A stretch of 64,000 nucleotides of DNA from Deltaproteobacteria bacterium (GTDB taxonomy: Bacteria > Myxococcota_A > Bradymonadia > REDH01): positions 77,321-141,320 of the forward strand of contig REDH01000072.1 of NCBI GenBank assembly GCA_007693585.1. Direction: 5' to 3'. The number at the start of each line of letters is the position of its first letter. Position 1 is the stretch's first letter. The notes under the pieces were generated by a model. It ran no database searches. It was not told where the DNA came from and saw nothing but the letters and a program-made list of their open reading frames with translations. The translations under genes were made by a program, and so were the position numbers. Shown here in pieces: positions 23,966-42,993 of the stretch.

Positions 23966-24105
23966 CGACGCGACGGCCACAGCCCGCACGCACCACCACC
24001 CGGGCCCATGGGACACTCCGACGCAGAGGACGAAACTTGCCCTCCAGCCAGCACCGTGCCAGTGTCGGGCGGCTGAACTGCGTCCCCGCTCGTCGGCCCG
24101 TCCGA

Positions 24106-25338
24106 ATGCTCAAGAGATTCCTGAAAGCCCTGGGGCGAAGCGATCCACAGCCCCAGCAGGAGGGCCCCACATCCGGGGAAGCCCTGCTCGACGCCCTGCG
24201 CGAACCGCTGGCCAGCCGCCTCCGGGATTCCGAGCAGTCTCCCGACCACGCCCTCGCGGACCTGCTCGTGGCCATGGCCGAGAGCGACATCCCCGACGAT
24301 GCGACCGCCGAGTCGAGGCGCCTCTACGGACGCAGCCTGCTGCCCCTCCTCCTCGACAATGACGCAAGACCCCCCGGGCTCCAGCTCCGGGACGAAGACC
24401 TCGACCCCGCACGCGCTCTCCTGCGCTCCTTCTTCTTCCGCGAAGGAGACATGCAGGAAAAGGCCTCGACCCTGCTCAAGTTCATCGAGAAGCGCTTCGC
24501 CGCCGAACACTTCGGGCAGGCCGAGATCCTCCTCGAACTCTTCGACAGCGAGCCGGCCACCCGGCGACACAACGAGCTCAACCTCTTCTACGAATCCATG
24601 CTCGTGCGCACCAATGGCACACGACGCTCACCACCTGGCCCCGACACCCTCCGCGACTGGCAACAGATGGCCGAGCGCGGTGCACCGCTCCCGGAACTCC
24701 TCCGCTTCCTCCACCAACAGGCCGGCATCCGGTTCCACATCCGACGACGCAACCCCGACGAGACCCGCGCCTGGAACGAAGCACTCCCCGATCGCATCGA
24801 ACACCACGCGCGCTCCACCTTCCTCGAACGCGTCCCTCCCGCACGATGGAGACCCGCACCCGACTCCCTCGACGACATCCGCACCCTCCTCGAGAATGCC
24901 TGCGGACCGGACGACTTCCAGCGCCAGGTCGAACACCTCACCCGCTCCGCATACTTCATCTCCCGCACCGTCGGACGGACCGGATTCGAACCACTCCTCG
25001 TCCGCTACGTCTCCTGGATCCGGGAGACCTTCACCTCCCCCGCCATCGCCGTGCTGCCCAGCCTCCACCTCTCCGCCCTCGACGAGAACCTGCTCTTCGG
25101 CGACATCGTCCGCTCCATCGTCGCCGAAAGACTCTCGTCGACCACCCGTCCCGAACGGAAGTGCTCCCCCGACAACATCCCCGGTGCACTGACCGCCACC
25201 CGGAACGCCATCGCCGACCTCGCCATCGACGTCCTCCCCGAAGGCGACTACGATCTCGCCGGACTCGTGCTCGACCACGCCATCGGGTACACCCGGCAGG
25301 CCGACACGAGGCACGTCCGCCTCCACAGGCTGCTCTAG
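24106..25338 (+). CDS. Hypothetical cytoplasmic protein (411 aa), lying between the GltJ-like and giant TPR genes
   Basis: In-frame ATG at 24106 (MLKRFLKALGR...). The preceding 1 kb of the same ORF is Arg-rich antisense-like sequence overlapping the gene at 21713..23965 and is rejected. No recognisable motifs. Confidence 0.4.
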   Translation: MLKRFLKALGRSDPQPQQEGPTSGEALLDALREPLASRLRDSEQSPDHALADLLVAMAESDIPDDATAESRRLYGRSLLPLLLDNDARPPGLQLRDEDLDPARALLRSFFFREGDMQEKASTLLKFIEKRFAAEHFGQAEILLELFDSEPATRRHNELNLFYESMLVRTNGTRRSPPGPDTLRDWQQMAERGAPLPELLRFLHQQAGIRFHIRRRNPDETRAWNEALPDRIEHHARSTFLERVPPARWRPAPDSLDDIRTLLENACGPDDFQRQVEHLTRSAYFISRTVGRTGFEPLLVRYVSWIRETFTSPAIAVLPSLHLSALDENLLFGDIVRSIVAERLSSTTRPERKCSPDNIPGALTATRNAIADLAIDVLPEGDYDLAGLVLDHAIGYTRQADTRHVRLHRLL

Positions 25339-25361
25339 CCCCGCCCACTGCCCTCCCCACC

Positions 25362-28300
25362 ATGCCCAACGCCACGGAGGACGGCGCACGGCCACCCGCC
25401 GATGCGCTGAAACTGTCCATCGACTTCCTCTTCGGACGAGGCTTCCTCACCGTCCGCCAGCAGCGCCTCGCCCACTGGGGAACGCTCGACGAACTCCGCA
25501 TGGAAGTCCCCGACCTGCGCTTCCCCTTCGACGTACAGGGCGGGCTGCACCGCTTCCGGCAGGTCCGCCACCACGTCCACCGGCTCCGGTACACCCTCTC
25601 CGAAAACGAGCTCGCCCGAACCCTCGACGCCGCCGCCGATGACATCTCCGGCTTCCACGCCGTCCAGCTCCGCCTCGCCCAGGGATCCCTGGTGCTGTGC
25701 GCCCAGGTCTCCCTCCTCTCCGCACGCGGAGCCATCGCCTGCCGCCTCGCTCCGGCCCCCGCGCTCCTCGACGACCCCCTCACCCTCCAGCTCGTCCCCG
25801 TCGAGTACACCACCTTCGGCGACCTGCCCCTCCCCGCCCCGCTCCTGCTCTCCGAGCTCCTCGGCCGACTCCTCCACCACGCCAGACTCCAGCACCCCAT
25901 CCCCGACTGGGCCCCCCGACTGCACGGCGACGTCCTCCAGCTCCGCCCCAGCCCCATGGTGCTCGCCGGACTCTTCCTCCCCCTGGGCTGGAAGATCCCC
26001 GCCACCGAACGACTCACCGCCGAGACCATCGACATCCGGCCCGGCGCCATTCACATCCTCGCCGCCGGCCGAGACGGCCCGCACCCGAGCCCCCACGAAC
26101 GCCACGACGTCCGCGACGCACGCTCCGGACGCAGCGCCGCCCTCGCCCTCGCCGGACTCGAAGCCCGAGCCGGACTCGAAGCCACCGACCAGGCCCTCTT
26201 CCGCGGAGACCTGCAGAACGCACTCGATGCCTGCAGACCCATCGCCACCAGCAGCGCCGCCCCCGACGTCGCCGTACACCGACTCCTCGACCTCCTCCTC
26301 GCCGCCGGCACCCCCGAGGCCACCGCCGAAGCCTCCCGCATCGCCGGCGATCGCGCCGACCGCGACCCCGAAGACCGGATCGCCCTCCAGACCCTCGCTC
26401 GCCTGCACCCGGACGACGCCTCCATCACCGACCGACTCCTCGAAGCACTCCGCGCCGCCAGCATGACCCCGGAGCTCATCCTCGGCGCCGTCGCCACCGC
26501 CGAAAGCGCCATGCACCGCGACCACGAGGACGCAGGACACCGTATCGCCAGCGCGCTCCGACTCGCGCCGCGACACCCCGAAGCGCTCCGGCTGCGCATC
26601 GACCACGCCCGACGAACCGGCGACCTCACCTCCCTCGAGGACACCCTGCGACGACGTTCCAGCGTCGCCCCCACCCTCCCCGAACGCATCGACCACCACC
26701 TCGAACTCGCCCGCCTCGCGCTCCGACGCAGAGGAGACGCCGCCGAAGCGCGCGCCTGGCTCGAACGAGCACGCTCCCTCTCCCCCGACACCGCCGACAT
26801 CTACACCGAGCTCGCCCACGCCTTCCTCCAGGAAGGACGCCCCGCCGACGCCGTCCGCGCCCTCGACACCGCCGCCACCCGGTACGCCGACGCCCACGAC
26901 CCCGCCGCCGCCGCACTCGCCCGCCGCCGAGCCGCCACCACCTGGCACCAGCAGCTCGACCAGCCCGACGCCGCACTCGCCGAGCTCCAGCGCGCCTGGA
27001 CCCTGCACCCGGACCCCGAAACCGCCATCGAACTCGTCGACCTCGCCATCGCCGCCCGACGACCCGATGACGCACTCGCCCCCCTGCAGACCGCCCTCCA
27101 CACCGCCACCGCACAACCCGTCCCCCCGGACACCCTCGCCGATCTCACCGAACGCGCCGCCAGACTCGACGAGGCCAGAGGCCGAATCGACGAGGCCATC
27201 TCCCGACGCAGGGACCTCCTGCACCTCCGCCCCGCCGACCGCGCCAACCGCAGCGCCCTCGAACGCGCACTCGTCGACGCCGGTCGAGCCGACGAATGGG
27301 TCGCCCTGCACGAAGAACTCCTCGATCACTGCGACCCCGACGAAATCCCCACCCTCCACGCCTCCCTCGCCCGCACCCTCCAGGAAACCCTCGACCGCCC
27401 CCTGCGCGCCGCACACCACTGGCGCCTGGTGCTCACCGCCCAGCCCGACCACCACGAAGCCCTCCATCGCCTCCGAGCCATCCACGCGGACCACCAACTC
27501 TGGCTCGAGCTCGCGGACGCCCTCCAGGCCGTCATCGCGGAGCACCCGGAACACCGCGCCGCACCCACCCTCCGCGCCGTCGCCGCCGAAGCCGCGTCCG
27601 CAGGCGGCGACGACACGCTCGCCATCGACCTCGCCCGAGCCGCGATCGCCCAGCACCCGGAAGCCTCCGCGCCCTGGCTCGCCGCAGCGTCGATCCTCCC
27701 CGACGAAGAGGCCTGGCACGCCGCCGAGCAGTTCGCCGACCGCACCGACGACCTCCCTCGCGCAGCCACCCTCCTGCGCACACTCGGCGACCGCGCATTC
27801 ACCTCCAGCGACGGCATGCGCCGCGCCGTCCGACTCTACCGCCGCGCTCTCCTCCTCGTGAACGACGAGGACACCCGACAACGCCTGCGTCGCGCCGCGG
27901 AACACTGCGGCATGGACCCCGACCGCGTCCTCCCCCCGACCGCCACGGCCCCCCCGCGCGCACAGGCGAACTCCCCGGCCCACGACAGGACTCCACCGGC
28001 TCCCGCCCGCGACCCGAGCTCCGCACCCCCACCCGCACGGCAGCCACCGGCACAGCAGCCGCCCGACGACCGAGCTCCCACACAGCACCCATCCGCGCCG
28101 CACGCTTTACCTCCGCAGACGCTCGCGAACTCCCCGGCCCCCAACAGGACTCCACCGGAACCGGCCGGCGACGACGAGAGCCCTGCGGCACCGGCCGGCG
28201 GGGCCCCAGGGCCACGCCTCGTGGACACCCCACCCGGAGGCCTCGACACCGACCGCCCCGTGGACGGCGCGCCCCCATCCACGCAGGCGCGAAGAATCGA

Positions 28301-30158
28301 AGGGCTCCGCGCCGAGCTCGAGGTCGCCCGCCACGCCGAAAGCCACGGGGAAGTCGTCCGCGTGCTGGAGGAACTCACGGGCCTCGTTCACGAGGACGGC
28401 GAACGCGCACGACTGTGCGCCGAGCTCGGGAGCACCCTCTATCATGATCTGGAAGAGTCCGAGCGGGCGCGACACTGGCTCGAGGAAGCGCAGCGGATCG
28501 ACCCGGACGGCGAGGGCCAGCGCTTCGAAGTCCTCACCGCCCTCGAAGCCATCTACGAGGACGTGGACGCCCCGGACGCCCTCCTGGAGGTCTACCGCCG
28601 CAAGCTCGAGGGAGCCGCCGACCCCGCGATGCGCGACGTCTTCCGCCTGCTGATGGCCACGGTGCTGTTCGAACGGCTGCACCGCCCGCGCGAGGCGCTC
28701 GCCCTCATCGACGAGAGCCTGCGGGACAGCGCCGCCAACATCCCCGCCCTCCGCCTGAAGGCCGAGATTCACGAGGACCAGGGGGATCCGTCGAGCGCGG
28801 TCCGAACGCTGCAGCACATCCTCGATCGCCCGGAACTCGATCCGTTCGAACGACAGGAGGTGCTGCGAAGCCTTGGCCGACTCGAGTGGAGGGAGCTGGG
28901 GGACCACGAGCGGGCTGCCAGTCGGTTCGAGGAGCTGCTCGCGCAGATCCCCGGGGACACGGACTGTCTGTCCGCGCTCAAGCAGATCCATGGCGCACGG
29001 GGTGCGTGGGACGACTGCGCGCGGGTGCTCTGGCGCGAGCTCGGCCTGCTCATCGGCCGCCTCGATGCATTCGAGGATGCCGGCGACGTGCTCGCCCTGC
29101 CCGAGTCGGACGTCCCGGCGCTGCTGCGCGGGACCTTCGCCCGGATTCTCGCGGAAGCCGCCGAGGTGCTGGCCAACGACAGCAACCGGGAGGAGCTGGC
29201 CGCGAAGCTCCTCGACCGGGCGGGCCAGCACGGGTCCAGCGAGCCTGCCGTGCTCGAGGCGCGCATCCGCGTCGGGCAGCGCCTCGACGACCACGCCGGC
29301 GTCGCACGCGCCGCCGAGCAACTCGCCGAACTGCTGCTCCTGAGCGAGGAGCGCCAGCAGCTTCAGGCGCTGGCCGCGGAGGCCTGGGAGCGCGCCGGGT
29401 TCGCCAGCCGGGCCGCCGCGCTCCGCAGCGCGGTCGCGTCCGCCGAGAGGGAGGGGAGTCGCCTGTCCCCCCATCCCGCCACTGTGTCCGGGCCGGTGGA
29501 GCGACCGCCCGTGGACGGGAAACACGGGGAGGACGCGCTGCGGGATCCGCAGATCGAAGCCGAGACGGCACGGAACGACCTTCGTGGGGATGACGAGGAC
29601 GTGGACGAGCTGGACGGATCGACGCCGGCCCCTGCACCGCAGGCGGGCACGCTCCACACCGCGACGGACGGAACCGACGGTTCGACCGCCTCGGTGGAGT
29701 CGTTCGACCCGGCGCGCGCGGGCACCGCGGAGCGATTGAGTCATCTGGATCGCCTGGCACGGTCGGAGCGGTATGCGGAGGCCCTGAGTGCGATCGAGTC
29801 ATGGCTTCCGATGGCGCGGGATCCGGTCCACCGCCGGGAGCTCCTGCTTCGGAAGGGGCGACTGCTGATCGATCGCAGCGGAACGGGACGGGACGCGATC
29901 CTCGTGCTCAAGGGCGCGCTGATCCTCGACGAGAATGCTGCCGATACGCGGTTCGAGCTGATGCGCGCGCACGCGCGGTCCGGAGAGTTCCGGCTTGCGA
30001 TGGAGCAACTGCGGGAGCTGTCGACGATTCTCGGGTCGGACCTGTTGTCGCTGGACGGGCTGGCGCCGGAGATCGATCGGCTGCGGGCGCTCGGAGAGCC
30101 CGCGGACGTGTCGCGGCTCGATCAGTGGGTGCGGGACGTGCGCCCATCGGGCGAGTGA
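25362..30158 (+). CDS. Very large (about 1,600 aa) cytoplasmic TPR-like helical-repeat protein with a central Pro-rich low-complexity linker. Possibly GltI/AgmK-like.
   Basis: No signal peptide (MPNATEDGARPPADALKL...). Dozens of Ala/Leu/Arg-rich helical repeat units typical of TPR-like solenoids. Pro-rich segment at about 27900-28280 with a 34-bp near-identical direct repeat (27966 and 28125). Confidence 0.5.
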   Translation: MPNATEDGARPPADALKLSIDFLFGRGFLTVRQQRLAHWGTLDELRMEVPDLRFPFDVQGGLHRFRQVRHHVHRLRYTLSENELARTLDAAADDISGFHAVQLRLAQGSLVLCAQVSLLSARGAIACRLAPAPALLDDPLTLQLVPVEYTTFGDLPLPAPLLLSELLGRLLHHARLQHPIPDWAPRLHGDVLQLRPSPMVLAGLFLPLGWKIPATERLTAETIDIRPGAIHILAAGRDGPHPSPHERHDVRDARSGRSAALALAGLEARAGLEATDQALFRGDLQNALDACRPIATSSAAPDVAVHRLLDLLLAAGTPEATAEASRIAGDRADRDPEDRIALQTLARLHPDDASITDRLLEALRAASMTPELILGAVATAESAMHRDHEDAGHRIASALRLAPRHPEALRLRIDHARRTGDLTSLEDTLRRRSSVAPTLPERIDHHLELARLALRRRGDAAEARAWLERARSLSPDTADIYTELAHAFLQEGRPADAVRALDTAATRYADAHDPAAAALARRRAATTWHQQLDQPDAALAELQRAWTLHPDPETAIELVDLAIAARRPDDALAPLQTALHTATAQPVPPDTLADLTERAARLDEARGRIDEAISRRRDLLHLRPADRANRSALERALVDAGRADEWVALHEELLDHCDPDEIPTLHASLARTLQETLDRPLRAAHHWRLVLTAQPDHHEALHRLRAIHADHQLWLELADALQAVIAEHPEHRAAPTLRAVAAEAASAGGDDTLAIDLARAAIAQHPEASAPWLAAASILPDEEAWHAAEQFADRTDDLPRAATLLRTLGDRAFTSSDGMRRAVRLYRRALLLVNDEDTRQRLRRAAEHCGMDPDRVLPPTATAPPRAQANSPAHDRTPPAPARDPSSAPPPARQPPAQQPPDDRAPTQHPSAPHALPPQTLANSPAPNRTPPEPAGDDESPAAPAGGAPGPRLVDTPPGGLDTDRPVDGAPPSTQARRIEGLRAELEVARHAESHGEVVRVLEELTGLVHEDGERARLCAELGSTLYHDLEESERARHWLEEAQRIDPDGEGQRFEVLTALEAIYEDVDAPDALLEVYRRKLEGAADPAMRDVFRLLMATVLFERLHRPREALALIDESLRDSAANIPALRLKAEIHEDQGDPSSAVRTLQHILDRPELDPFERQEVLRSLGRLEWRELGDHERAASRFEELLAQIPGDTDCLSALKQIHGARGAWDDCARVLWRELGLLIGRLDAFEDAGDVLALPESDVPALLRGTFARILAEAAEVLANDSNREELAAKLLDRAGQHGSSEPAVLEARIRVGQRLDDHAGVARAAEQLAELLLLSEERQQLQALAAEAWERAGFASRAAALRSAVASAEREGSRLSPHPATVSGPVERPPVDGKHGEDALRDPQIEAETARNDLRGDDEDVDELDGSTPAPAPQAGTLHTATDGTDGSTASVESFDPARAGTAERLSHLDRLARSERYAEALSAIESWLPMARDPVHRRELLLRKGRLLIDRSGTGRDAILVLKGALILDENAADTRFELMRAHARSGEFRLAMEQLRELSTILGSDLLSLDGLAPEIDRLRALGEPADVSRLDQWVRDVRPSGE

Positions 30159-30376
30159 CCGGCCCCGGATTCGACGCCGGCCACGAGTTCGGAGGGCTCC
30201 CGAAGCGTCGCGTTCCGTCACGGAGACCGGCGCCCGGCCGTGCGCTGCGACATCGGTCGGGGGTGCTCGCAACTTGTCCGCGCCGATGATGCCCGTTATT
30301 GTGGGACCTGCGCGTGATCTTCCGTCCGGTGGCGACGGTGGCCGCGCACGCCACGCCGAGCGAGCCCGTGACGACG

Positions 30377-31021
30377 ATGCCCAGAACCCCTGTACTGCCC
30401 GCACTCCTGATTCTGCTTGCGGTGTCCGGATGTTCGGAGGACGGGATCGACCTCTTCCGCTCGACGGATGCGCCTCCGATCGCTCCACCCGAGTCGTCGG
30501 GCGATGTGGTGGGCGAAGGTCCTCGTGCGAGTGACGCGATCGATCCGTCGGCGGATCCGACCGGGTGCGCCGCGCTCGACGCGGAATGGCCCGAGAGCTG
30601 GAAGGCGTTCGAGGCCGAGGTGGTCCGGCTGGTGAACGAGCGACGATCCAGCCCGGCGCGCTGCGGAGCCAGCAGCATGCCGGCCACATCGGTTGCGCTC
30701 GTCGCGGAGGCGCGGCTGACCTGCGCGTCCCGACAGCACAGCATGGACATGTCTGCAGCGCAGCAGATCTTTCACGACGGTTCGGACGGGCGCAGCCCCT
30801 TCGACCGGATCCGGGACGTCGGATACACCGGGGGATATCCGCAGGGTGAGAACGTGGCGCAGGGGTATCCGACACCGGAGTCCGTGGTCGACGGGTGGAT
30901 GAACAGCGACGGACACTGTCGCAACATCATGAACCCGGACTTCAGCGAGATCGGCGTCGGCTACGAGGGGGGCTCGGGAGCCCGACGTCACTTCTGGACG
31001 CAGAAGTTCGGCAACCGCTGA
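30377..31021 (+). CDS. CAP/SCP/PR-1 domain lipoprotein
   Basis: Lipoprotein signal MPRTPVLPALLILLAVSGC. The C-terminal half (VVDGWMNSDGHCRNIMNPDFSEIGVGYEGG...HFWTQKFG) is a classic CAP-domain signature. Confidence 0.65.
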   Translation: MPRTPVLPALLILLAVSGCSEDGIDLFRSTDAPPIAPPESSGDVVGEGPRASDAIDPSADPTGCAALDAEWPESWKAFEAEVVRLVNERRSSPARCGASSMPATSVALVAEARLTCASRQHSMDMSAAQQIFHDGSDGRSPFDRIRDVGYTGGYPQGENVAQGYPTPESVVDGWMNSDGHCRNIMNPDFSEIGVGYEGGSGARRHFWTQKFGNR

Positions 31022-31050
31022 GCGGCCTCCCGGGTGCGCACGGGTCAGAG

Positions 31051-31190
31051 GCCAACGGATCGGGGGAGCCGGACCGGGGCAAACGGATCGGGGGAGCCGG
31101 ACCGGGGCAAACGGATCGGGAGAGCCGGAGCCGGGGCAAACGGATCGGGGGAGCCGGACCGGGGCCAACGGACCGGGGGAGCCGCGATCG
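31051..31190. repeat. Tandem direct repeat: about 4.5 copies of a 28-29 bp unit (c/g)caaacggatcgggggagccggaccgggg, in a convergent intergenic region
   Basis: Read directly from the sequence. Units begin at 31051, 31080, 31108 and 31137, with a degenerate fifth at 31165. There are no spacers between copies. The array lies between the CAP gene stop (31021) and the Slt gene stop (31272). Confidence 0.85.
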
Positions 31191-31271
31191 GCGTGCGCGC
31201 CGGCCTTCTCCGGAGGGTGCGCGCCAGGCAGGGTGCACCGAACGGCTGTCCCCCACGGGAGACCGGGGTGG

Positions 31272-33389
31272 TCAGAAGTCCGGGAAGGCGGTGTGTTCGC
31301 GTCGGACGAAGGACGGGAGCAGGCCGCCGAGCTCGGGATCGCGGGTCCACGCGCCGTGCGGATCGGCGGCGAGCCGGTAGCGGACGGCGAGGGTGATCAC
31401 GCTGCGCGCGTAGTTGCGGGCCTGCTCGAAGGCCATCTCCTCGACGAAGCGATCGAGGGGCTGGTCACCGTGGCGTTCGATCCAGGTCCACATGGCGATG
31501 GGTCCTGCGTTGTAGGCGGCCACGGCGATGGGCCAGCTGTCGTCGAACTGGCGGTACAGTGCGCCGAGGTACCAGCTTCCGTACCGGATGGCGTGGAGGG
31601 GCTCGAAGAGCTGCCCGTCGGTGTAGGTCCATGTGTTGAGGCGGGCGATGGCCTCGGCGGTCTGGGGGATGACCTGCATGAGCCCCATGGCGTCGCTGAC
31701 ACTGACGACGTGCCTGCGAAACGAGCTCTCCTGCTCCATGACGGCGAGGATGATGTCGGGGGGGACGTCCCACTCGGTTGCGAAGCGGCGGACTGCGGCG
31801 CCGTGAAGGGGGGGGTAGGCGCCCTGCCACTGGCGGAGATCGCGGAGATTGGCCGGGGGGCGATCGAGGCGGCGGCCGGCGGTTCGGCGGGCCCGGATCC
31901 AGTCCTCGCGGCTGGCGTGGACGCGCAGGCGCCGCTCCCGGTCCGTCCGCCGTCGTTCCACGCGGTCCACGAGGGCGGCCTCGTCGTGGAGTCCGAGCTC
32001 GGCGAGTCGTTCGGCGAGATCGAGGCGGGTTCGGACGGCGCGTTGCCGAGGAGCGCCGCCGTCGGGTTGCGGGATGGGATCGAGGCCGAGGCGGCGGCGG
32101 GCGAGGAAGGCGTACCAGGAGAGGGGGGCGATGGTGTCGACGGTGGTCCATCGTGCGCTGGCGTCCTCGGTGTGGCCTTCCTGCTCGAGGCAGACCGCGG
32201 TCCAGTAGTGGATGCGGGCGATCTCGCGGGGGCGCCCGGACGACGCGAGGGGCTCCCATGCGGCACGGGCCTCGGGGCAGCGGTCGAGTCGGAAGAGCGC
32301 CCACCCGATCCACCAGTCGGCGTCTCCGGGGCGCCCGGGTTGTCGCAGGGACTCGAGCACGGGGATGGCGGCCTCGTCGTCGCGGAGCTGGAGATGGATC
32401 ATGGCGACGTGGCGGATGGCGTCCTGTCGGCGGGCGTGCGCATCGGGCCACCGTTCGGGGAACTGCTGCCAGTGGAGGAGGGCCTCCGCGGTTCGTCCGG
32501 CGCGCAGGAGCGCGAGTCCGAGGGTGTGGTCGGCGTCCTGCTGTCGCGGTCCTTCGCGGGTGGCCACGGCGCGCAGCCAGGGCAGCCCGCGCTCCGCGTG
32601 TTCCCTGCGGTAGCGCTGGAGGAGGTGGCCGAGCCGCCAGGCGGCCTCGAGGACGTCGGGTCCGGCATCGGGGACGATCCGGTCGGGGCTGCACTCGCTC
32701 TGCGCACCGCAGGCGGCAGCGCGCAGGAGCCGTTCGGCCGTGGGGTAGTGTCGACCGCGGCGGGCGGCGTCGGCGCGCTCGATGAGCTGGGCCGTGTGCG
32801 GGGCGTCGTCGAGGTGGAGGATGTGAATGCGGGCGGTGAGCGGGTCGCCCGGGTGTTCGTGGAGGAGGGAGCGCTGCACGTCACGGGCATCGTCGTCGCG
32901 GCCGGCGCGCTCGAGGGCGAGCGCGAGAAAGTGCATGCGCCGTGCGCGGGTGGCGCTGGAGGTGCGCGGTGCGCGCGGGTCTTCGAGGAGCTCCTGCCAG
33001 GCCAGGACCGCTGCATCGGGGTCGCCGGCGTGCAGGAGCCGTCGCGCCTCCAGCTCGGCGTACCAGGGCAGGTGCGCGTGCAGTGACGAGCCGGGGATGG
33101 CACCCAGCTCTGCGGCCCGCTCGAGGGCTGCAATGGCCTCCTCGAATCGGCCGGTGTCGAAGGCGCAGCGTGCGGCGTAGAGCCAGGCGATGGTGGCCTC
33201 GACGGGGCGCACCGCCACCTGGGGGGAGGGTGCGCAGGTCCCGTCCAGCCAGGTCTCCACGACGTGTGGGAGGGCCGGTGCGGTCACGCGTTCGGCGGCG
33301 TGGGCCGACAGGCTCCCCGTGGCGAGCATCGCCAGCGCGAGGGAGATGACGCCGAGGGCGAGGCGAATCGCCGCTGGATGCGGGGACAT
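31272..33389 (-). CDS. slt: Soluble lytic murein transglycosylase (Slt70-like: superhelical N-terminal domain plus SLT catalytic domain)
   Basis: Signal peptide MSPHPAAIRLALGVISLALAMLATGSLSAHA. SLT domain motifs ILAVMEQESSFRRHVVSVSDAMGLMQVIPQTA and AAYNAGP. Confidence 0.75.
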   Translation of the reverse strand: MSPHPAAIRLALGVISLALAMLATGSLSAHAAERVTAPALPHVVETWLDGTCAPSPQVAVRPVEATIAWLYAARCAFDTGRFEEAIAALERAAELGAIPGSSLHAHLPWYAELEARRLLHAGDPDAAVLAWQELLEDPRAPRTSSATRARRMHFLALALERAGRDDDARDVQRSLLHEHPGDPLTARIHILHLDDAPHTAQLIERADAARRGRHYPTAERLLRAAACGAQSECSPDRIVPDAGPDVLEAAWRLGHLLQRYRREHAERGLPWLRAVATREGPRQQDADHTLGLALLRAGRTAEALLHWQQFPERWPDAHARRQDAIRHVAMIHLQLRDDEAAIPVLESLRQPGRPGDADWWIGWALFRLDRCPEARAAWEPLASSGRPREIARIHYWTAVCLEQEGHTEDASARWTTVDTIAPLSWYAFLARRRLGLDPIPQPDGGAPRQRAVRTRLDLAERLAELGLHDEAALVDRVERRRTDRERRLRVHASREDWIRARRTAGRRLDRPPANLRDLRQWQGAYPPLHGAAVRRFATEWDVPPDIILAVMEQESSFRRHVVSVSDAMGLMQVIPQTAEAIARLNTWTYTDGQLFEPLHAIRYGSWYLGALYRQFDDSWPIAVAAYNAGPIAMWTWIERHGDQPLDRFVEEMAFEQARNYARSVITLAVRYRLAADPHGAWTRDPELGGLLPSFVRREHTAFPDF

Positions 33390-39442: not shown

Positions 39443-39925
39443 ATGATCGTCGCGATTTACACCGTATTCATCATCAACTGCTTCTTCCTGTGCCTGGTGG
39501 TGCTCCTGCAGTCCGGCAAGGGCGGGGGCATGGCCGGGATCGGCGGAGGCGGAGGCGGCTCGGCTACCGTCTTCGGGAACCGTGGCGCCACGACGTTCGT
39601 GCAGAAGCTCACGATCGCCTCGGCCGCGCTGTTCATGGGGCTGAGCATGCTGCTCGCCTACCTGTCGACGACCTCCACGGCGACGGACGCGGGCGAGTTC
39701 CGGCCGGCCGCCGTGGCCCCGGCGGAGGTCCCTGAGGCGATGCCGCTCGAGCTTCAGCCGGTGCAGCAGGAGCCCTTGGAGGCCGTGCCGATGGAGCAGG
39801 CCCCCGTGGAGCAGGCACCCGTGGACGCCGAACCCGTGGAGCAGGCACCCGCGGGAGAGCCGTCCGGTGCGGAGGACGCTCCCGCGGCTGAAGATGCTGC
39901 TCCGGCGGAGGATTCGGAAGAGTGA
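39443..39925 (+). CDS. secG: Preprotein translocase subunit SecG, with a Pro/Glu/Ala-rich C-terminal extension
   Basis: MIVAIYTVFIINCFFLCLVVLLQSGKGGGMAGIGGGGGG...FGNRGATTFVQKLT is the SecG core. The extra 60 aa contain PVEQAPV-type repeats. Confidence 0.8.
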   Translation: MIVAIYTVFIINCFFLCLVVLLQSGKGGGMAGIGGGGGGSATVFGNRGATTFVQKLTIASAALFMGLSMLLAYLSTTSTATDAGEFRPAAVAPAEVPEAMPLELQPVQQEPLEAVPMEQAPVEQAPVDAEPVEQAPAGEPSGAEDAPAAEDAAPAEDSEE

Positions 39926-40027: not shown

Positions 40028-40108
40028 TGCGAGAGTGGTGGAATTGGCAGACACGCAAGACTAAGGATCTTGTGGCCGCAAGGCTGTGAGGGTTCGAGTC
40101 CCTCCTCT
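40028..40108 (+). tRNA. tRNA-Leu (type II, long variable arm). Anticodon read as AAG by manual folding.
   Basis: Acceptor GCGAGAG / CTCTCGC with discriminator A. 3-bp D-stem. Anticodon stem CAAGA / TCTTG with loop CTAAGGA (U33, anticodon AAG, G37). T-arm GAGGG-TTCGAGT-CCCTC. No encoded CCA. Confidence 0.8.
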
Positions 40109-40115
40109 CGCACTG

Positions 40116-40149
40116 ACGCCCCGGTCTCCCGACCGGGGCGTTTTCGTTT
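40116..40149 (+). terminator. Intrinsic terminator after tRNA-Leu
   Basis: 10-bp perfect stem cgccccggtc / gaccggggcg with a tccc loop, followed by ttttcgtttt. Confidence 0.6.
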
Positions 40150-40214
40150 TCGGCGGCTCGCCTCGGGGTGTATTGCACCCGTGCCGGGGTTTCCGCGAGA
40201 CCAGGGAGGGTGTC

Positions 40215-41492
40215 ATGCTGGATGTTCGCGCCGTACTCGATAACCTGGACGATGTTCGGGAGCGCACGAAGGCCCGTGGCGCGGCATTCGACATCGAGCG
40301 CCTGGCCGCTCTGGCGGAGGAGCGTCGCGATGCGATCCACGCGTTCGAGCAGCTTCGGGCAGAGCAGAAGAGGGCTTCGGGGGAGATGAAGGGGCTCCGT
40401 CCCGGCAGCGAGGAGTTCGACGCGCTGCGCACTCGGCTTCGGGAGATGAGTGATCGGATCAAGGCCCTGGACGAGGCGCGCCGGCTTGCGGACGAGGCGC
40501 TGGAGGCGCTGCTTCTGGAGGTCCCGAATCCGATCGCGCCCGGCGTTCCGCGGGGTGCCAGCGATGCGGACAATGTGGAGGTTCGCCGCTGGGGAACGCC
40601 ACGTTCGTTCGACGGCGAGGAGGTCCGGGACCATGTGGACCTGGCGACGGAGCTTGGGATTCTCGACATGGAGGCCGCGGCGCGGGTGTCGGGGGCGCGC
40701 TTCGCGTTTCTGACTGGCGCGGGAGCCCGTCTCGAGCGCGCGCTGGCATCGCTGATGCTCGACATCCAGACGGTGGAGCACGGCCATGTGGAGGTGGCGG
40801 TCCCGTATCTGGTGCATGCGCCGTCGCTGGTGGGGACTGGGCAGTTGCCGAAGTTCGGGGAGGATCTGTTCCGGGCGGGGGAACACTATCTGATCCCGAC
40901 GGCGGAGGTTCCGCTGACGAATCTCTTCCGGGAGCAGATCATCGAGGGCCTGGAGGAGCCGATTCGGCTCTGTGCGCACACGCCCTGCTTCCGGCGTGAG
41001 GCGGGCAGCCATGGCCGGGACACCCGGGGGCTGATCCGGATGCACCAGTTCTCGAAGGTGGAGATGGTGCGGATCTGCCGTCCGGAGGACAGCGAGGCGG
41101 AGCACGAGTCGATGGTGCACCACGCGTGTCTGGTGCTGGAGCGCCTTGAACTTCCGTACCGGGTGGTGGAGCTGTGTAGCGGCGACATCGGGTTCAGTGC
41201 GGCGCGGTGTTTCGACATCGAGGTCTGGCTGCCGTCGCGCGGCGGATACGTGGAGATCTCGAGCTGTTCGAACTGCCATGACTTCCAGGCGCGTCGGGCG
41301 GGCATCCGCTACCGGCCGGAACCGGGTGCCCGTCCGCAGTTCGCGCACACGCTCAACGGGAGTGGCCTGGCGGTGGGACGCGCGCTGGTGGCGGTGCTGG
41401 AGAACGGCCAGCAGGAGGATGGAAGTGTCCGTCTGCCGGTGGCTCTGGTGCCGTACATGGGGGGCATCGAGGTTTTGCGGAAGGGGGGCTGA
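40215..41492 (+). CDS. serS: Seryl-tRNA synthetase
   Basis: N-terminal coiled-coil MLDVRAVLDNLDDVRERTKARG.... Class II core motifs FRREAGSHGRDTRGLIRMHQFSKVEM and GSGLAVGRALVAVLEN. RBS GGGAGGG. Confidence 0.9.
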   Translation: MLDVRAVLDNLDDVRERTKARGAAFDIERLAALAEERRDAIHAFEQLRAEQKRASGEMKGLRPGSEEFDALRTRLREMSDRIKALDEARRLADEALEALLLEVPNPIAPGVPRGASDADNVEVRRWGTPRSFDGEEVRDHVDLATELGILDMEAAARVSGARFAFLTGAGARLERALASLMLDIQTVEHGHVEVAVPYLVHAPSLVGTGQLPKFGEDLFRAGEHYLIPTAEVPLTNLFREQIIEGLEEPIRLCAHTPCFRREAGSHGRDTRGLIRMHQFSKVEMVRICRPEDSEAEHESMVHHACLVLERLELPYRVVELCSGDIGFSAARCFDIEVWLPSRGGYVEISSCSNCHDFQARRAGIRYRPEPGARPQFAHTLNGSGLAVGRALVAVLENGQQEDGSVRLPVALVPYMGGIEVLRKGG

Positions 41493-41584: not shown

Positions 41585-41667
41585 CGGAGGAGTGGCCGAG
41601 CGGTCGAAGGCGGCGGTCTTGAAAACCGTTGTGCGAAAGCACCGGGGGTTCGAATCCCTCCTCCTCC
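41585..41667 (+). tRNA. tRNA-Ser (anticodon TGA)
   Basis: GGAGGAG acceptor with discriminator G. Anticodon stem CGGT/ACCG around loop CTTGAAA. Long variable arm. T-loop TTCGAAT. Confidence 0.75.
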
Positions 41668-41716
41668 GCTGAGCTGCTCCCCGTCTTTGACAAGTGAATG
41701 TCGGAACGATTCGTCA

Positions 41717-41806
41717 GGAGTGGTGGCCGAGTGGCTGAAGGCGCTCGCCTGCTAAGCGAGTATACGGGCAAAACCCGTATCGAGGGTTCGAATCCCTCCC
41801 ACTCCG
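41717..41806 (+). tRNA. tRNA-Ser (anticodon GCT)
   Basis: GGAGTGG acceptor. Anticodon stem CTCGC/GCGAG around loop CTGCTAA. Long variable arm. GAGGG-TTCGAAT-CCCTC T-arm. Confidence 0.75.
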
Positions 41807-41912
41807 CTGGTTTTCTCCGGTTCGGGAGGCGGTGTCGTGCCAGCCGATTCGCCGTTGACACCTTCGGGTGCGGCGAGTAGGAGCACGCTCCGCTTCCGGA
41901 CGGGAGCCCGAC

Positions 41913-41986
<74 letters not shown>

Positions 41987-42004
41987 CTGGACGAATCGAG
42001 GAGA

Positions 42005-42475
42005 ATGGGCGTGTGCAGTGACGCGGACATCGGGTTCATGCGTCAGGCGCTTGCGCAGGCGAGCGCTTGTCTTCCCGCCGGGGACGTTCCCGTCGGGGCG
42101 GTGCTCGTGCGAGACGGCGAAGTGCTGTCGGTCGGGCGCAATCGCCGTGTGGAGGAGGGTTCTCCCCTGCTCCACGCCGAGCTGGACGCGATCGAACGTG
42201 GAGCCCGTGCACTCGGCTCCTGGCGTCTGGACGCCTGCACCCTGTACGTGACACTGGAGCCGTGCGTGATGTGTGCGGGTGCGGTGCTGCAGTCCAGGGT
42301 GGGCCGGGTGGTCTATGGCGCGGACGATGCGAAGGCCGGTGCGGTCCGGTCACTGTATCAGGTGCTGGAGGATCCACGATCGCCGTTCTCCGTGAAGGTT
42401 TCGCGTGGCGTGCTGGCAGAGGAGTGTGCCGCCTTGCTGCGGTCGTTCTTTCGGGAGCGCCGGGGCGGGAAGTGA
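42005..42475 (+). CDS. tadA: tRNA-specific adenosine(34) deaminase
   Basis: FMRQALAQA...VPVGAVLV...HAELDAIE...TLEPCVMCAGAVLQSRVGRVVYGADDAKAGA are the CDA-fold H(A)E and PCxxC zinc motifs. The ATG at 42005 carries the RBS GAGGAGA and lies 19 bp after tRNA-Arg(ACG). Confidence 0.85.
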   Translation: MGVCSDADIGFMRQALAQASACLPAGDVPVGAVLVRDGEVLSVGRNRRVEEGSPLLHAELDAIERGARALGSWRLDACTLYVTLEPCVMCAGAVLQSRVGRVVYGADDAKAGAVRSLYQVLEDPRSPFSVKVSRGVLAEECAALLRSFFRERRGGK

Positions 42476-42504
42476 GTCTCGCCAGCCGAAGCCGTCGCGA
42501 GTCC

Positions 42505-42591
42505 GGAGGGGTGGCCGAGTGGTCGAAGGCGCTTGACTCGAAATCAAGTGTACGTTCACGCGTACCGTGGGTTCGAATCCCACCCCCTCCG
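42505..42591 (+). tRNA. tRNA-Ser (anticodon CGA)
   Basis: GGAGGGG acceptor. Anticodon stem CTTGA/TCAAG around loop CTCGAAA. Long variable arm. GTGGG-TTCGAAT-CCCAC T-arm. Confidence 0.75.
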
Positions 42592-42647
42592 CTTCGCGGG
42601 CCATCGAACGGTGGCCCCGAACGAATCGTGTCCGACATCACCCGAAT

Positions 42648-42734
42648 GGAGAGGTGGCCGAGTGGTTGAAGGCGCACGCCTGGAACGCGTGTAATCGGGA
42701 AACCGGTTCGTGGGTTCGAATCCCACCCTCTCCG
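42648..42734 (+). tRNA. tRNA-Ser (anticodon GGA)
   Basis: GGAGAGG acceptor. Anticodon stem CACGC/GCGTG around loop CTGGAAC. Long variable arm. GTGGG-TTCGAAT-CCCAC T-arm. Confidence 0.75.
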
Positions 42735-42813
42735 CTGTCGCGTCGCATTCCCGGCTCATCCCGGGCTGTGCGACCCCGGTTATGCCGGGCCCCGCGACGT
42801 ACGACCGTGAATT

Positions 42814-42844
<31 letters not shown>

Positions 42845-42993
42845 GTACGGCGTGTGCGGGGTCCGGCACCCCCCTTCGTGAGTGGCCCCGCGTACGATGC
42901 GCCCTTGTGCTTCCGACGCGGTCCATGCAGCCTGTGCTGGCCCCGGGGTCCCGCCCGGGACTCCACACGCCCCCCCCGGCCAGCGTTTCGCGC

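What the first reader, a model, noticed from the sequence alone, without database searches (positions are those of the whole stretch)
40028..40108. tRNA-Leu with an apparent A34 anticodon (AAG), about 2 kb upstream of tadA
My fold gives anticodon stem CAAGA/TCTTG and loop C-U-A-A-G-G-A, which puts AAG at positions 34-36. Bacteria normally encode tRNA-Leu(GAG) for CUY codons, and A34 is normally restricted to tRNA-Arg(ACG). An A34 Leu tRNA would require inosine formation, probably by an expanded-specificity TadA, as reported for a few bacterial lineages. In that case the nearby tadA and tRNA-Arg(ACG) would be a coherent unit. Caveat: this depends on a single-nucleotide read of the loop and on my manual fold.
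Basis: seen in the sequence. Interest (0 to 1): 0.55.

Follow-up and report, generated by a model that had tools for sequence, protein, structure and literature searches.

The report
Leucine tRNA with adenine wobble base
A GC-rich myxobacterium-like lineage carries a leucine tRNA gene with A at the wobble position, which very probably must be edited to inosine to read the lineage's commonest leucine codon; this feature was previously reported almost only in AT-rich lactic acid bacteria.

Summary
ARAGORN and the Rfam tRNA model both place AAG at positions 34-36 of a type II tRNA-Leu at 40029-40112. It is not an error. An independent assembly of the same organism has the identical gene. Nine further genomes or contigs of a deep, 61-69% GC, Bradymonadia-like Myxococcota clade carry A34 at the same site, with compensatory stem changes.

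The gene sits directly after secG and is followed by a strong terminator. E. coli and two sequenced relatives have tRNA-Leu(GAG) at this site. CUC is the commonest leucine codon in the clade (42-57%), so A34 very probably has to become inosine.

The loop, CUAAGGA, differs from the host tRNA-Arg(ACG) loop, CUACGGA, only at position 35. That is the position TadA reads least strictly. A canonical tadA lies 1.9 kb downstream, but it is in a separate transcription unit, so the "coherent unit" idea is weak.

The same anticodon arm with A34 occurs in at least 119 species of roughly eight phyla, mostly Cloacimonadota. It also occurs as tRNA-Leu(UAG), but never with G34 or C34. This suggests a UAG-type arm that is pre-adapted to TadA.

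Inosine itself, and the absence of a second GAG gene, remain untested. Verdict: a new member of a known kind, of moderate interest.

The parts
39443..39925 (+). secG, immediately upstream of the tRNA and on the same strand
   Evidence: TIGR00810 secG, 70 bits. The gene call in the independent assembly L120 (2246-2728) maps to 39443-39925.
40029..40112 (+). tRNA-Leu(AAG): type II, A73 discriminator, no encoded CCA
   Evidence: ARAGORN; Rfam RF00005, 55 bits; identical in L120; 5 of 25 pairs show compensatory changes across the clade.
40063..40065 (+). Anticodon A34-A35-G36; loop C32-U33-A34-A35-G36-G37-A38 spans 40061-40067
   Evidence: Covariance-model alignment; invariant in 10 clade sequences.
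40115..40152 (+). Intrinsic terminator: 12-bp stem with 9 G-C pairs, then a T-rich tail. It closes the secG-tRNA-Leu unit.
   Evidence: Terminator scan.
40215..41492 (+). serS, between the tRNA-Leu and the tRNA/tadA cluster
   Evidence: TIGR00414, 481 bits.
41913..41986 (+). tRNA-Arg(ACG), the canonical TadA substrate; loop CUACGGA
   Evidence: ARAGORN and Rfam, 67 bits; arm extracted.
42011..42475 (+). tadA. The start is GTG 42011 (GAGGAG 7 nt upstream; N-terminus as in relatives) or ATG 42038 (145-aa product of the public record).
   Evidence: NF008113 TadA, 162.1 bits against a cutoff of 150; ungapped alignment to PDB TadAs with HAE and PCVMC motifs; P0001 100% identical; start context.

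Best explanation
This is a functional leucine tRNA gene with a genomically encoded A at wobble position 34. It occupies the conserved site directly downstream of secG, where E. coli and the G34-bearing relatives keep tRNA-Leu(GAG). After transcription as part of a secG-tRNA-Leu unit, A34 is most likely deaminated to inosine by the genome's TadA. TadA recognises the anticodon loop, and this loop (C-U-A-A-G-G-A) is identical to that of its normal substrate tRNA-Arg(ACG) (C-U-A-C-G-G-A) except at position 35. The resulting tRNA-Leu(IAG) reads CUC (the commonest leucine codon here), CUU and possibly CUA, taking over the role of tRNA-Leu(GAG). Shown: the gene, its anticodon, its conservation and structural constraint, its genomic site, the loop match, the presence of a canonical tadA, and the codon usage. 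Inferred: deamination to I34, the absence of a GAG gene elsewhere in the genome, and co-transcription with secG.
For: Anticodon AAG by two independent methods. Identical gene in an independent assembly. A34 is present in 11 of 11 syntenic loci: the window, its re-assembly L120, and L077, L122, L124, L125, L126, L128, L129, L131, L211. Their TpiA is 57-59% and their TadA or SerS about 59-63% identical to the window's. Across 10 clade tRNAs, 5 of 25 stem pairs show compensatory double changes while A34-A35-G36 never vary. In the same site after secG, a Myxococcaceae MAG (L130), another contig (L132) and E. coli leuU carry GAG. Codon counts: CUC is 42-57% of Leu codons and CUU 5-12% in clade loci of 61-69% GC. 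Unmodified A34 reads C poorly (PMC11066159). The Leu and Arg(ACG) loops differ only at nucleotide 35. E. coli TadA partly deaminates an AAG anticodon when the rest of the loop equals its tRNA-Arg loop, and changes at positions 32, 37 or 38 abolish this. S. pyogenes, S. pneumoniae and O. oeni TadA convert tRNA-Leu(AAG) to IAG. tadA is present and canonical. All eight clade TadAs share R-S-[LF]-[YF]-Q, close to DSLYQ in S. pyogenes TadA. E. coli, S. aureus and B. subtilis have G-S/T-L-M-D/N there.
Against: No RNA data, so I34 is not observed. Only 64 kb of this genome and at most 21 kb of each relative were visible, so a separate tRNA-Leu(GAG) elsewhere cannot be excluded. E. coli TadA failed on S. 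pyogenes tRNA-Leu(AAG) in vitro, so a canonical-looking TadA is no guarantee of activity. Six clade members have U32, four of them also U38, in the Leu loop. In E. coli such changes would block TadA, so their enzymes must be more tolerant. The TadA motif is not specific: the YQ dipeptide also occurs in 16 of the 120 nearest homologues, whose tRNA status is unknown.
Confidence: 0.8

Rival explanations
1. A34 stays unmodified. The tRNA is a minor CUU reader (or a weak reader of all four CUN codons), and CUC is read by a tRNA-Leu(GAG) encoded elsewhere in the genome.
For: The rest of the genome was not visible. Unmodified A34 tRNAs exist in O. oeni, where only two of four A34 tRNAs are modified. 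E. coli TadA does not edit S. pyogenes tRNA-Leu(AAG).
Against: The AAG gene sits in the site where GAG is found in E. coli, L130 and L132. CUU is only 5-12% of Leu codons, a weak reason to conserve a dedicated tRNA across a deep clade. In Lactobacillales no family has both AAG and GAG. The loop matches the TadA substrate loop at 6 of 7 positions.
Confidence: 0.1
2. Artefact: a sequencing or assembly error at one base, or a decaying pseudogene.
For: The source is a metagenome-assembled genome.
Against: Identical sequence in an independent assembly. A34 in all 11 syntenic loci. Compensatory stem changes. Terminator and conserved site. The same A34 arm occurs in at least 119 species genomes.
Confidence: 0.01
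3. Origin rival: the gene arose by a simple G34-to-A34 transition in the resident tRNA-Leu(GAG), as the literature assumes for Lactobacillales, and not from a UAG-type tRNA-Leu.
For: It occupies the GAG site after secG. A transition is the simplest change. The 2026 surveys infer G34A for Lactobacillales.
Against: The exact 21-nt arm never occurs with G34: 0 of 121 matches in genomes and 0 hits in 241 million metagenome records. It does occur with T34 (64 matches) and A34 (57 matches). The three GAG tRNAs seen in this site have different stems and U32/(G or U)38 loops. Outside the arm, L077's AAG tRNA is 95% identical to a UAG tRNA (L137) but 74-79% identical to the GAG tRNAs (window: 78-81%).
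Confidence: 0.3

Closest known systems
tRNA-Leu(AAG)/IAG of Lactobacillales (Streptococcus pyogenes, S. mutans, Oenococcus oeni) edited by TadA
   Same: Genomically encoded A34 in a CUN leucine tRNA. It appears to stand in for tRNA-Leu(GAG). TadA is present. The loop fits the S. pyogenes editing consensus YUAMGRA. The clade TadAs share the SLYQ segment with S. pyogenes TadA.
   Different: The host is a 61-69% GC Myxococcota-type clade in which CUC, not a U-ending codon, dominates. Published A34 lineages are described as 60-70% AT and 'almost all' in Bacilli. Here the Leu and Arg loops differ only at position 35, against positions 35 and 37 in S. pyogenes. This TadA has no C-terminal extension. 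I34 has not been shown here.
E. coli secG-leuU locus (tRNA-Leu(GAG))
   Same: A tRNA-Leu lies directly downstream of secG on the same strand: 14 nt in E. coli and about 100 nt here. The D-arm is of the same type II Leu kind.
   Different: Anticodon GAG with loop UUGAGGU and stem CUACC/GGUAG, against AAG with loop CUAAGGA and stem CAAGA/UCUUG. E. coli encodes CCA and this gene does not.
Bacterial tRNA-Arg(ACG)/ICG, the canonical TadA substrate
   Same: A34 in a C32-U33-A34-N35-G36-G37-A38 loop. The window's own tRNA-Arg(ACG) at 41913-41986 has a loop identical apart from nucleotide 35.
   Different: Different amino acid, type I against type II body, A35 instead of C35, and A31-U39 instead of U31-A39 as the closing pair.
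Eukaryotic tRNA-Leu(IAG) made by ADAT2/ADAT3
   Same: The same anticodon and the same decoding logic: IAG reads CUU, CUC and CUA, with a second tRNA for CUG.
   Different: The eukaryotic enzyme is a heterodimer that ignores loop sequence and needs the whole tRNA. Here a homodimer-type TadA that reads the loop sequence is the only candidate.
tRNA-Leu(UAG) genes that share this anticodon arm
   Same: An identical 21-nt anticodon arm apart from nucleotide 34. One of them (L137) is 95% identical to L077's AAG tRNA outside the arm.
   Different: U34 instead of A34. None of 61 lies after secG, against 48 of 56 AAG genes.

Membership tests
Bacterial type II tRNA-Leu | Cloverleaf that scores above the tRNA covariance-model threshold | tested here: met
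   RF00005, 55 bits against 29; ARAGORN tRNA-Leu.
Bacterial type II tRNA-Leu | Long variable arm, A73 discriminator, G18-G19 and A14 (LeuRS identity set, from established knowledge; LeuRS does not read the anticodon) | tested here: met
   Read directly from the sequence and the model alignment: variable arm UGGCCGCAAGGCUGUG and discriminator A at 40112.
Bacterial type II tRNA-Leu | Charged with leucine | not testable with these tools
   Needs an aminoacylation assay.
Bacterial A34 tRNA-Leu(AAG)/IAG system (Lactobacillales type) | Genomic A at position 34 with A35 and G36, fixed in a lineage | tested here: met
   11 of 11 syntenic loci; invariant in the alignment.
Bacterial A34 tRNA-Leu(AAG)/IAG system (Lactobacillales type) | tRNA-Leu(GAG) absent from the same genome | not testable with these tools
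   Only partial evidence: the AAG gene sits at the site that holds GAG in E. coli, L130 and L132. Whole genomes could not be scanned.
Bacterial A34 tRNA-Leu(AAG)/IAG system (Lactobacillales type) | A34 converted to I34 in the mature tRNA by TadA | not testable with these tools
   Needs tRNA-seq, RNase T1 or in vitro deamination. Indirect support only, from the loop match and codon usage.
Bacterial A34 tRNA-Leu(AAG)/IAG system (Lactobacillales type) | AT-rich genome with a preference for U-ending codons (a reported correlate, not strictly defining) | tested here: not met
   GC is 0.61-0.69 and CUU/(CUU+CUC) is 0.11-0.22, against the 60-70% AT reported.
TadA (tRNA adenosine-34 deaminase) | Family model above its curated cutoff; zinc and catalytic motifs H-A-E and P-C-x-x-C | tested here: met
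   NF008113, 162.1 bits against 150. HAE and PCVMC align without gaps to 2B3J, 1Z3A and 2NX8.
TadA (tRNA adenosine-34 deaminase) | C-terminal extension proposed to help S. pyogenes TadA accept tRNA-Leu | tested here: not met
   The protein ends 3 residues after the last aligned helix residue: 145 aa from the ATG start, or 154 aa from the GTG start.
secG-leuU type locus | tRNA-Leu directly downstream of secG on the same strand, followed by a terminator | tested here: met
   The E. coli reference is. secG is adjacent in 57 of 119 genome-scan loci and 48 of 56 metagenome AAG loci.
secG-leuU type locus | Anticodon GAG | tested here: not met
   The anticodon is AAG.

The most novel reading that the evidence does not exclude
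Bacterial tRNA-Leu(AAG) is not a rare quirk of Lactobacillales that arises by a G34A point mutation. Instead it is a recurrent, widely distributed gene type, present in Cloacimonadota, Christensenellales-like Clostridia, Fibrobacter, Hydrogenedentota, Sumerlaeota and a GC-rich Bradymonadia-like Myxococcota clade, among others. On this reading it is built on a UAG-type anticodon arm whose C32...A38 loop is pre-adapted to TadA. A U34-to-A34 change (or gene conversion from the UAG paralogue) creates an immediately editable substrate, and that substrate then displaces tRNA-Leu(GAG) at the secG site, whatever the genomic GC content or codon bias. This would amount to a general route by which wobble inosine expands in bacteria, accompanied by a small TadA signature (R-S-L-Y-Q in the 108-125 loop).
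Probability: 0.35. Interest if true: 0.65.

Novelty: new member of a known kind. Interest (0 to 1): 0.5.

Why it matters
Wobble inosine outside tRNA-Arg is treated as a near-eukaryotic innovation. Its few bacterial cases are reported in AT-rich Firmicutes and explained by a preference for U-ending codons.

A deep GC-rich clade in which CUC dominates yet A34 is fixed shows that this explanation is not general. The same arm in many phyla shows that the trait is much commoner than surveys based on GtRNAdb suggest.

The finding also gives a concrete, testable rule for when TadA can acquire a second substrate: the loop must equal the tRNA-Arg loop except at position 35. Cultured organisms are available to test it (Pumilibacter intestinalis, Fibrobacter succinogenes, Christensenella and possibly Bradymonadales).

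TadA is the parent of the adenine base editors, so natural variants with relaxed position-35 reading have some applied interest.

Tried and rejected
- Exact look-ups of the window's TadA, both the 165-aa ORF and the 145-aa product, found no contig. TpiA worked instead.
- A scan of viral contigs for the arm returned nothing.
- I looked for genome-by-genome co-variation of positions 32 and 38 between the Leu(AAG) and Arg(ACG) loops as a sign of a shared enzyme. There is none: the Arg loop is always CUACGGA, while the Leu loop varies (CUAAGGA, UUAAGGA, UUAAGGU).
- I tried to tie the TadA R-S-L-Y-Q segment to contact with nucleotide 35. The S. aureus TadA-RNA structure paper is not held. The base-editor literature only says that loop 108-125 is solvent-exposed and affects activity and dimerisation. 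This remains a lead.
- I could not pair TadA motifs with tRNA-Leu anticodons outside the clade. tadA is not near the tRNA in other phyla, and only one extra pair (L211) was recovered from the metagenome loci.
This is rejected: a G-only scan of the metagenomes found nothing, and an A/C/T scan gave A and T.
- L137, the UAG twin, has no recognisable genes or other RNAs that would place it taxonomically.
- The 2018 RNA Biology survey of A34 tRNAs is not held.

Full report
**1. The observation**

The stretch 40029-40112 (+) is called tRNA-Leu with anticodon aag by ARAGORN. It matches the Rfam tRNA covariance model at 55 bits, against a gathering score of 29. The model's alignment gives anticodon stem CAAGA/UCUUG and loop C-U-A-A-G-G-A, so A34-A35-G36 are window bases 40063-40065.

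The tRNA is type II, with a long variable arm. It has G37 and an A73 discriminator, and it encodes no CCA; none of the six tRNA genes in the window does. A plain minimum-free-energy fold is unremarkable (z = -1.8), which is usual for tRNAs. The evidence for the fold is the covariance model and the comparative data below.

**2. It is not an error or a pseudogene**

The window comes from a MAG labelled 'Deltaproteobacteria bacterium'. Its TadA and TpiA are found at 100% identity on a 181,782-bp contig. An independent Logan assembly of another run (L120, SRR7901804) holds the same pgk-tpiA-secG-tRNA-serS stretch with an identical tRNA.

No close relatives exist in the databases; the next TadA is 63% and the next TpiA 58% identical. 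The nearest TpiA homologues lead to loci with the same gene order:

- The shared order is SLT/TPR, rhomboid, gap, pgk, tpiA, secG, tRNA-Leu, serS, tRNA-Ser(UGA), tRNA-Ser(GCU), tRNA-Arg(ACG), tadA, tRNA-Ser(CGA), tRNA-Ser(GGA), dnaX, ybaB, recR, a Roadblock/LC7 (MglB-like) gene, a small GTPase and PP2C.
- One of these relatives is labelled Bradymonadia (class of Myxococcota) and another Myxococcales.
- All of L077, L122, L124, L125, L126, L128, L129 and L131, plus the metagenome contig L211, carry tRNA-Leu(AAG) at that position.

In an alignment of ten clade tRNAs, A34-A35-G36 are invariant while 5 of 25 stem pairs show compensatory double changes. This is a functional tRNA under purifying selection.

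**3. Where it sits**

The gene lies about 100 nt after secG on the same strand. A 12-bp, G+C-rich hairpin with a T-rich tail follows it at 40115-40152. E. coli has the same arrangement, with leuU, a tRNA-Leu(GAG), 14 nt after secG. A Myxococcaceae MAG (L130) and another contig (L132) also have tRNA-Leu(GAG) directly after secG. So the AAG gene occupies the site that holds GAG elsewhere.

The terminator and serS separate it from the tRNA/tadA cluster. Among the 119 genome-scan loci that carry tRNA-Leu(AAG), secG was detected next to the tRNA in 57. The only TadA-like match outside the clade member L077 was one weak hit (25% identity, L099). What is conserved is that tadA sits inside a tRNA operon, immediately after its canonical substrate gene tRNA-Arg(ACG).

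**4. Why inosine is the likely mechanism**

- **Codon usage.** In ORFs chosen by GC3, the window has CUU 107, CUC 668, CUA 12, CUG 624, UUA 2 and UUG 56. The other clade loci (GC 0.61-0.69) show CUC at 42-57% and CUU at 5-12% of leucine codons. Unmodified A34 reads C-ending codons poorly (PMC11066159). Unless a GAG tRNA exists elsewhere, the commonest leucine codon needs I34.
- **Substrate fit.** The window's tRNA-Arg(ACG) loop is CUACGGA and the Leu loop is CUAAGGA, one difference at position 35.
- **Published experiments.** E. coli TadA modifies ACG, AUG and, to about 15%, AAG anticodons in a loop identical to tRNA-Arg2, and changes at positions 32, 37 or 38 abolish this. In the S. aureus TadA-RNA structure, C35 is solvent-exposed and makes a single hydrogen bond (as cited in PMC11472039). 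S. pyogenes TadA fully edits its tRNA-Leu(AAG), while E. coli TadA does not edit that tRNA, whose loop also differs at position 37.
- **The enzyme.** tadA scores above the curated TadA cutoff. It aligns without gaps to the S. aureus, E. coli, S. pyogenes and B. subtilis structures, with the H-A-E and P-C-V-M-C motifs intact. It has no C-terminal extension.
- **A possible TadA signature.** All eight clade TadAs read R-S-(L/F)-(Y/F)-Q where E. coli, S. aureus and B. subtilis read G-S/T-L-M-D/N. S. pyogenes TadA reads D-S-L-Y-Q. This segment lies in the solvent-exposed 108-125 loop that matters for activity. However, the YQ dipeptide also occurs in 16 of the 120 nearest homologues, whose tRNA status is unknown. 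It is a lead, not a determinant.

**5. Wider distribution and origin**

All 121 had A34. By record title:

- about 82 are Cloacimonadota and 15 are Clostridia (Christensenella, Pumilibacter and others);
- the remainder are Fibrobacter succinogenes (two tandem copies), Hydrogenedentota, Sumerlaeota, Opitutales, Nitrospirales, MAGs labelled Spirochaetales, one Myxococcales MAG (L077), single MAGs labelled Armatimonadota, Bacteroidales and proteobacterium, and about nine MAGs without a phylum label;
- the GC content of these loci ranges from 0.29 to 0.69.

MAG labels can be wrong, but the acceptor stems differ between groups, so this is not one recently transferred gene.

The G34 version of the arm has no match in 241 million metagenome records. 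[quoted passage not shown]

- The UAG genes are never next to secG: 0 of 61, of which 48 have enough upstream sequence to tell. The AAG genes are next to secG in 48 of 56 loci.
- Outside the 21 selected bases, L077's AAG tRNA is 95% identical (58 of 61) to a UAG tRNA (L137). That is more than AAG tRNAs within the clade resemble each other (86-89%) and more than either resembles the GAG tRNAs (74-81%).
- The three GAG tRNAs seen in the secG site have U32 and G38 or U38, and different stems.

My reading, which is an inference: the AAG gene is built on a UAG-type arm whose C32...A38 loop already equals the tRNA-Arg(ACG) loop. An A34 in that arm is immediately editable, whereas a G34A change in a GAG-type loop would not be. 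This is a hypothesis about origin, and a simple in-place G34A change followed by remodelling of the arm is not excluded.

**6. Comparison with what is known**

Bacterial tRNA-Leu(AAG) edited by TadA is established for O. oeni, S. pyogenes, S. mutans and S. pneumoniae. Surveys state:

- that almost all bacterial tRNA-Leu(AAG) genes lie in Bacilli (PMC13249217);
- that they occur in Leuconostocaceae and 'some Firmicutes' (PMC8007984);
- that genera in which an A34 tRNA is fixed are 60-70% AT with many U-ending codons (bioRxiv 10.64898/2026.05.15.725136).

A full-text search found no paper that links this tRNA to Cloacimonadota, Fibrobacter or Myxococcota. The two Rafels-Ybern surveys could not be read.

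The present case is the same kind of system in a new and compositionally opposite setting. It is a new member of a known kind.

**7. Limits**

- Inosine was not observed.
- Whole genomes could not be scanned for a second tRNA-Leu(GAG) or for the UAG and CAG partners.
- Codon counts come from a crude ORF filter on 8-64 kb per genome.
- The taxonomic names are record labels.

**8. Verdict**

- Best explanation (confidence 0.8): a functional tRNA-Leu(AAG) that replaces GAG at the secG site and is read as IAG after TadA deamination.
- Interest is 0.5. The most novel reading that the evidence does not exclude is a general, TadA-pre-adapted, UAG-derived route to wobble-inosine expansion across many bacterial phyla (probability 0.35, interest if true 0.65).

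Noticed in passing
window 41586-42873: tadA is embedded in a tRNA operon, 24-51 nt after its canonical substrate gene. The order is tRNA-Ser(UGA), tRNA-Ser(GCU), tRNA-Arg(ACG), tadA, tRNA-Ser(CGA), tRNA-Ser(GGA), SRP RNA (67 bits), then dnaX. The same order holds in the clade relatives whose loci extend that far: L077, L122, L124, L125, L128, L129, L131 and L211.
   Followed up: partly
window 42011-42040: The tadA start is ambiguous. The public product (145 aa) starts at ATG 42038. GTG 42011 has a GAGGAG box 7 nt upstream and yields the N-terminal '..DIGFM..' motif seen in the relatives' 150-aa TadAs. The longest ORF start (41978) overlaps tRNA-Arg and is unlikely.
   Followed up: partly
window 40112, 41668, 41806, 41986, 42591, 42734: None of the six tRNA genes in the window encodes the 3' CCA; each is followed by CTG or CTT. 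The AAG tRNAs of Cloacimonadota, Clostridia and most other phyla do encode CCA.
   Followed up: yes
window ~24000-32000: GC skew flips from strongly negative (-0.2 to -0.3) to positive near 28-30 kb, where gene orientation switches from the minus to the plus strand. Two large minus-strand ORFs there (25335-28106 and 28107-29798) have no Pfam match and an unusually high first-position GC (0.85).
   Followed up: no
TadA residues aligned to E. coli 115-119 (window about 42338-42352): All eight clade TadAs have R-S-(L/F)-(Y/F)-Q, and S. pyogenes TadA (which edits tRNA-Leu) has D-S-L-Y-Q. E. coli, S. aureus and B. subtilis have G-S/T-L-M-D/N. The YQ dipeptide also occurs in 16 of the 120 nearest homologues, whose tRNA-Leu status is unknown.
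   Followed up: partly
L134 441-461 and 3493-3513 (metagenome contig Ga0209066_10003086): The 5' half of a tRNA-Leu(UAG), up to the start of the variable arm, is repeated 3 kb upstream of the complete gene. This looks like the scar of an element integrated at the tRNA gene.
   Followed up: no
L025 7003-7225; L092: A Fibrobacter succinogenes MAG and a Cloacimonadota MAG each carry two tandem copies of tRNA-Leu(AAG).
   Followed up: no
L042 1045-1134; L056 5764-5852: In two Cloacimonadota genomes a tRNA-Leu(CAG) lies next to the AAG gene. It shares the same anticodon stem (CAAGA/UCUUG) but has the loop UUCAGGU, so leucine isoacceptors within a lineage share stems.
   Followed up: no
L124 11385-11470 and 13247-13699: The long-read 4.63-Mb contig has a 1-nt deletion in the 3' acceptor strand of the tRNA-Leu, and its tadA was called on the wrong strand. 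These are probably homopolymer errors, not biology.
   Followed up: no
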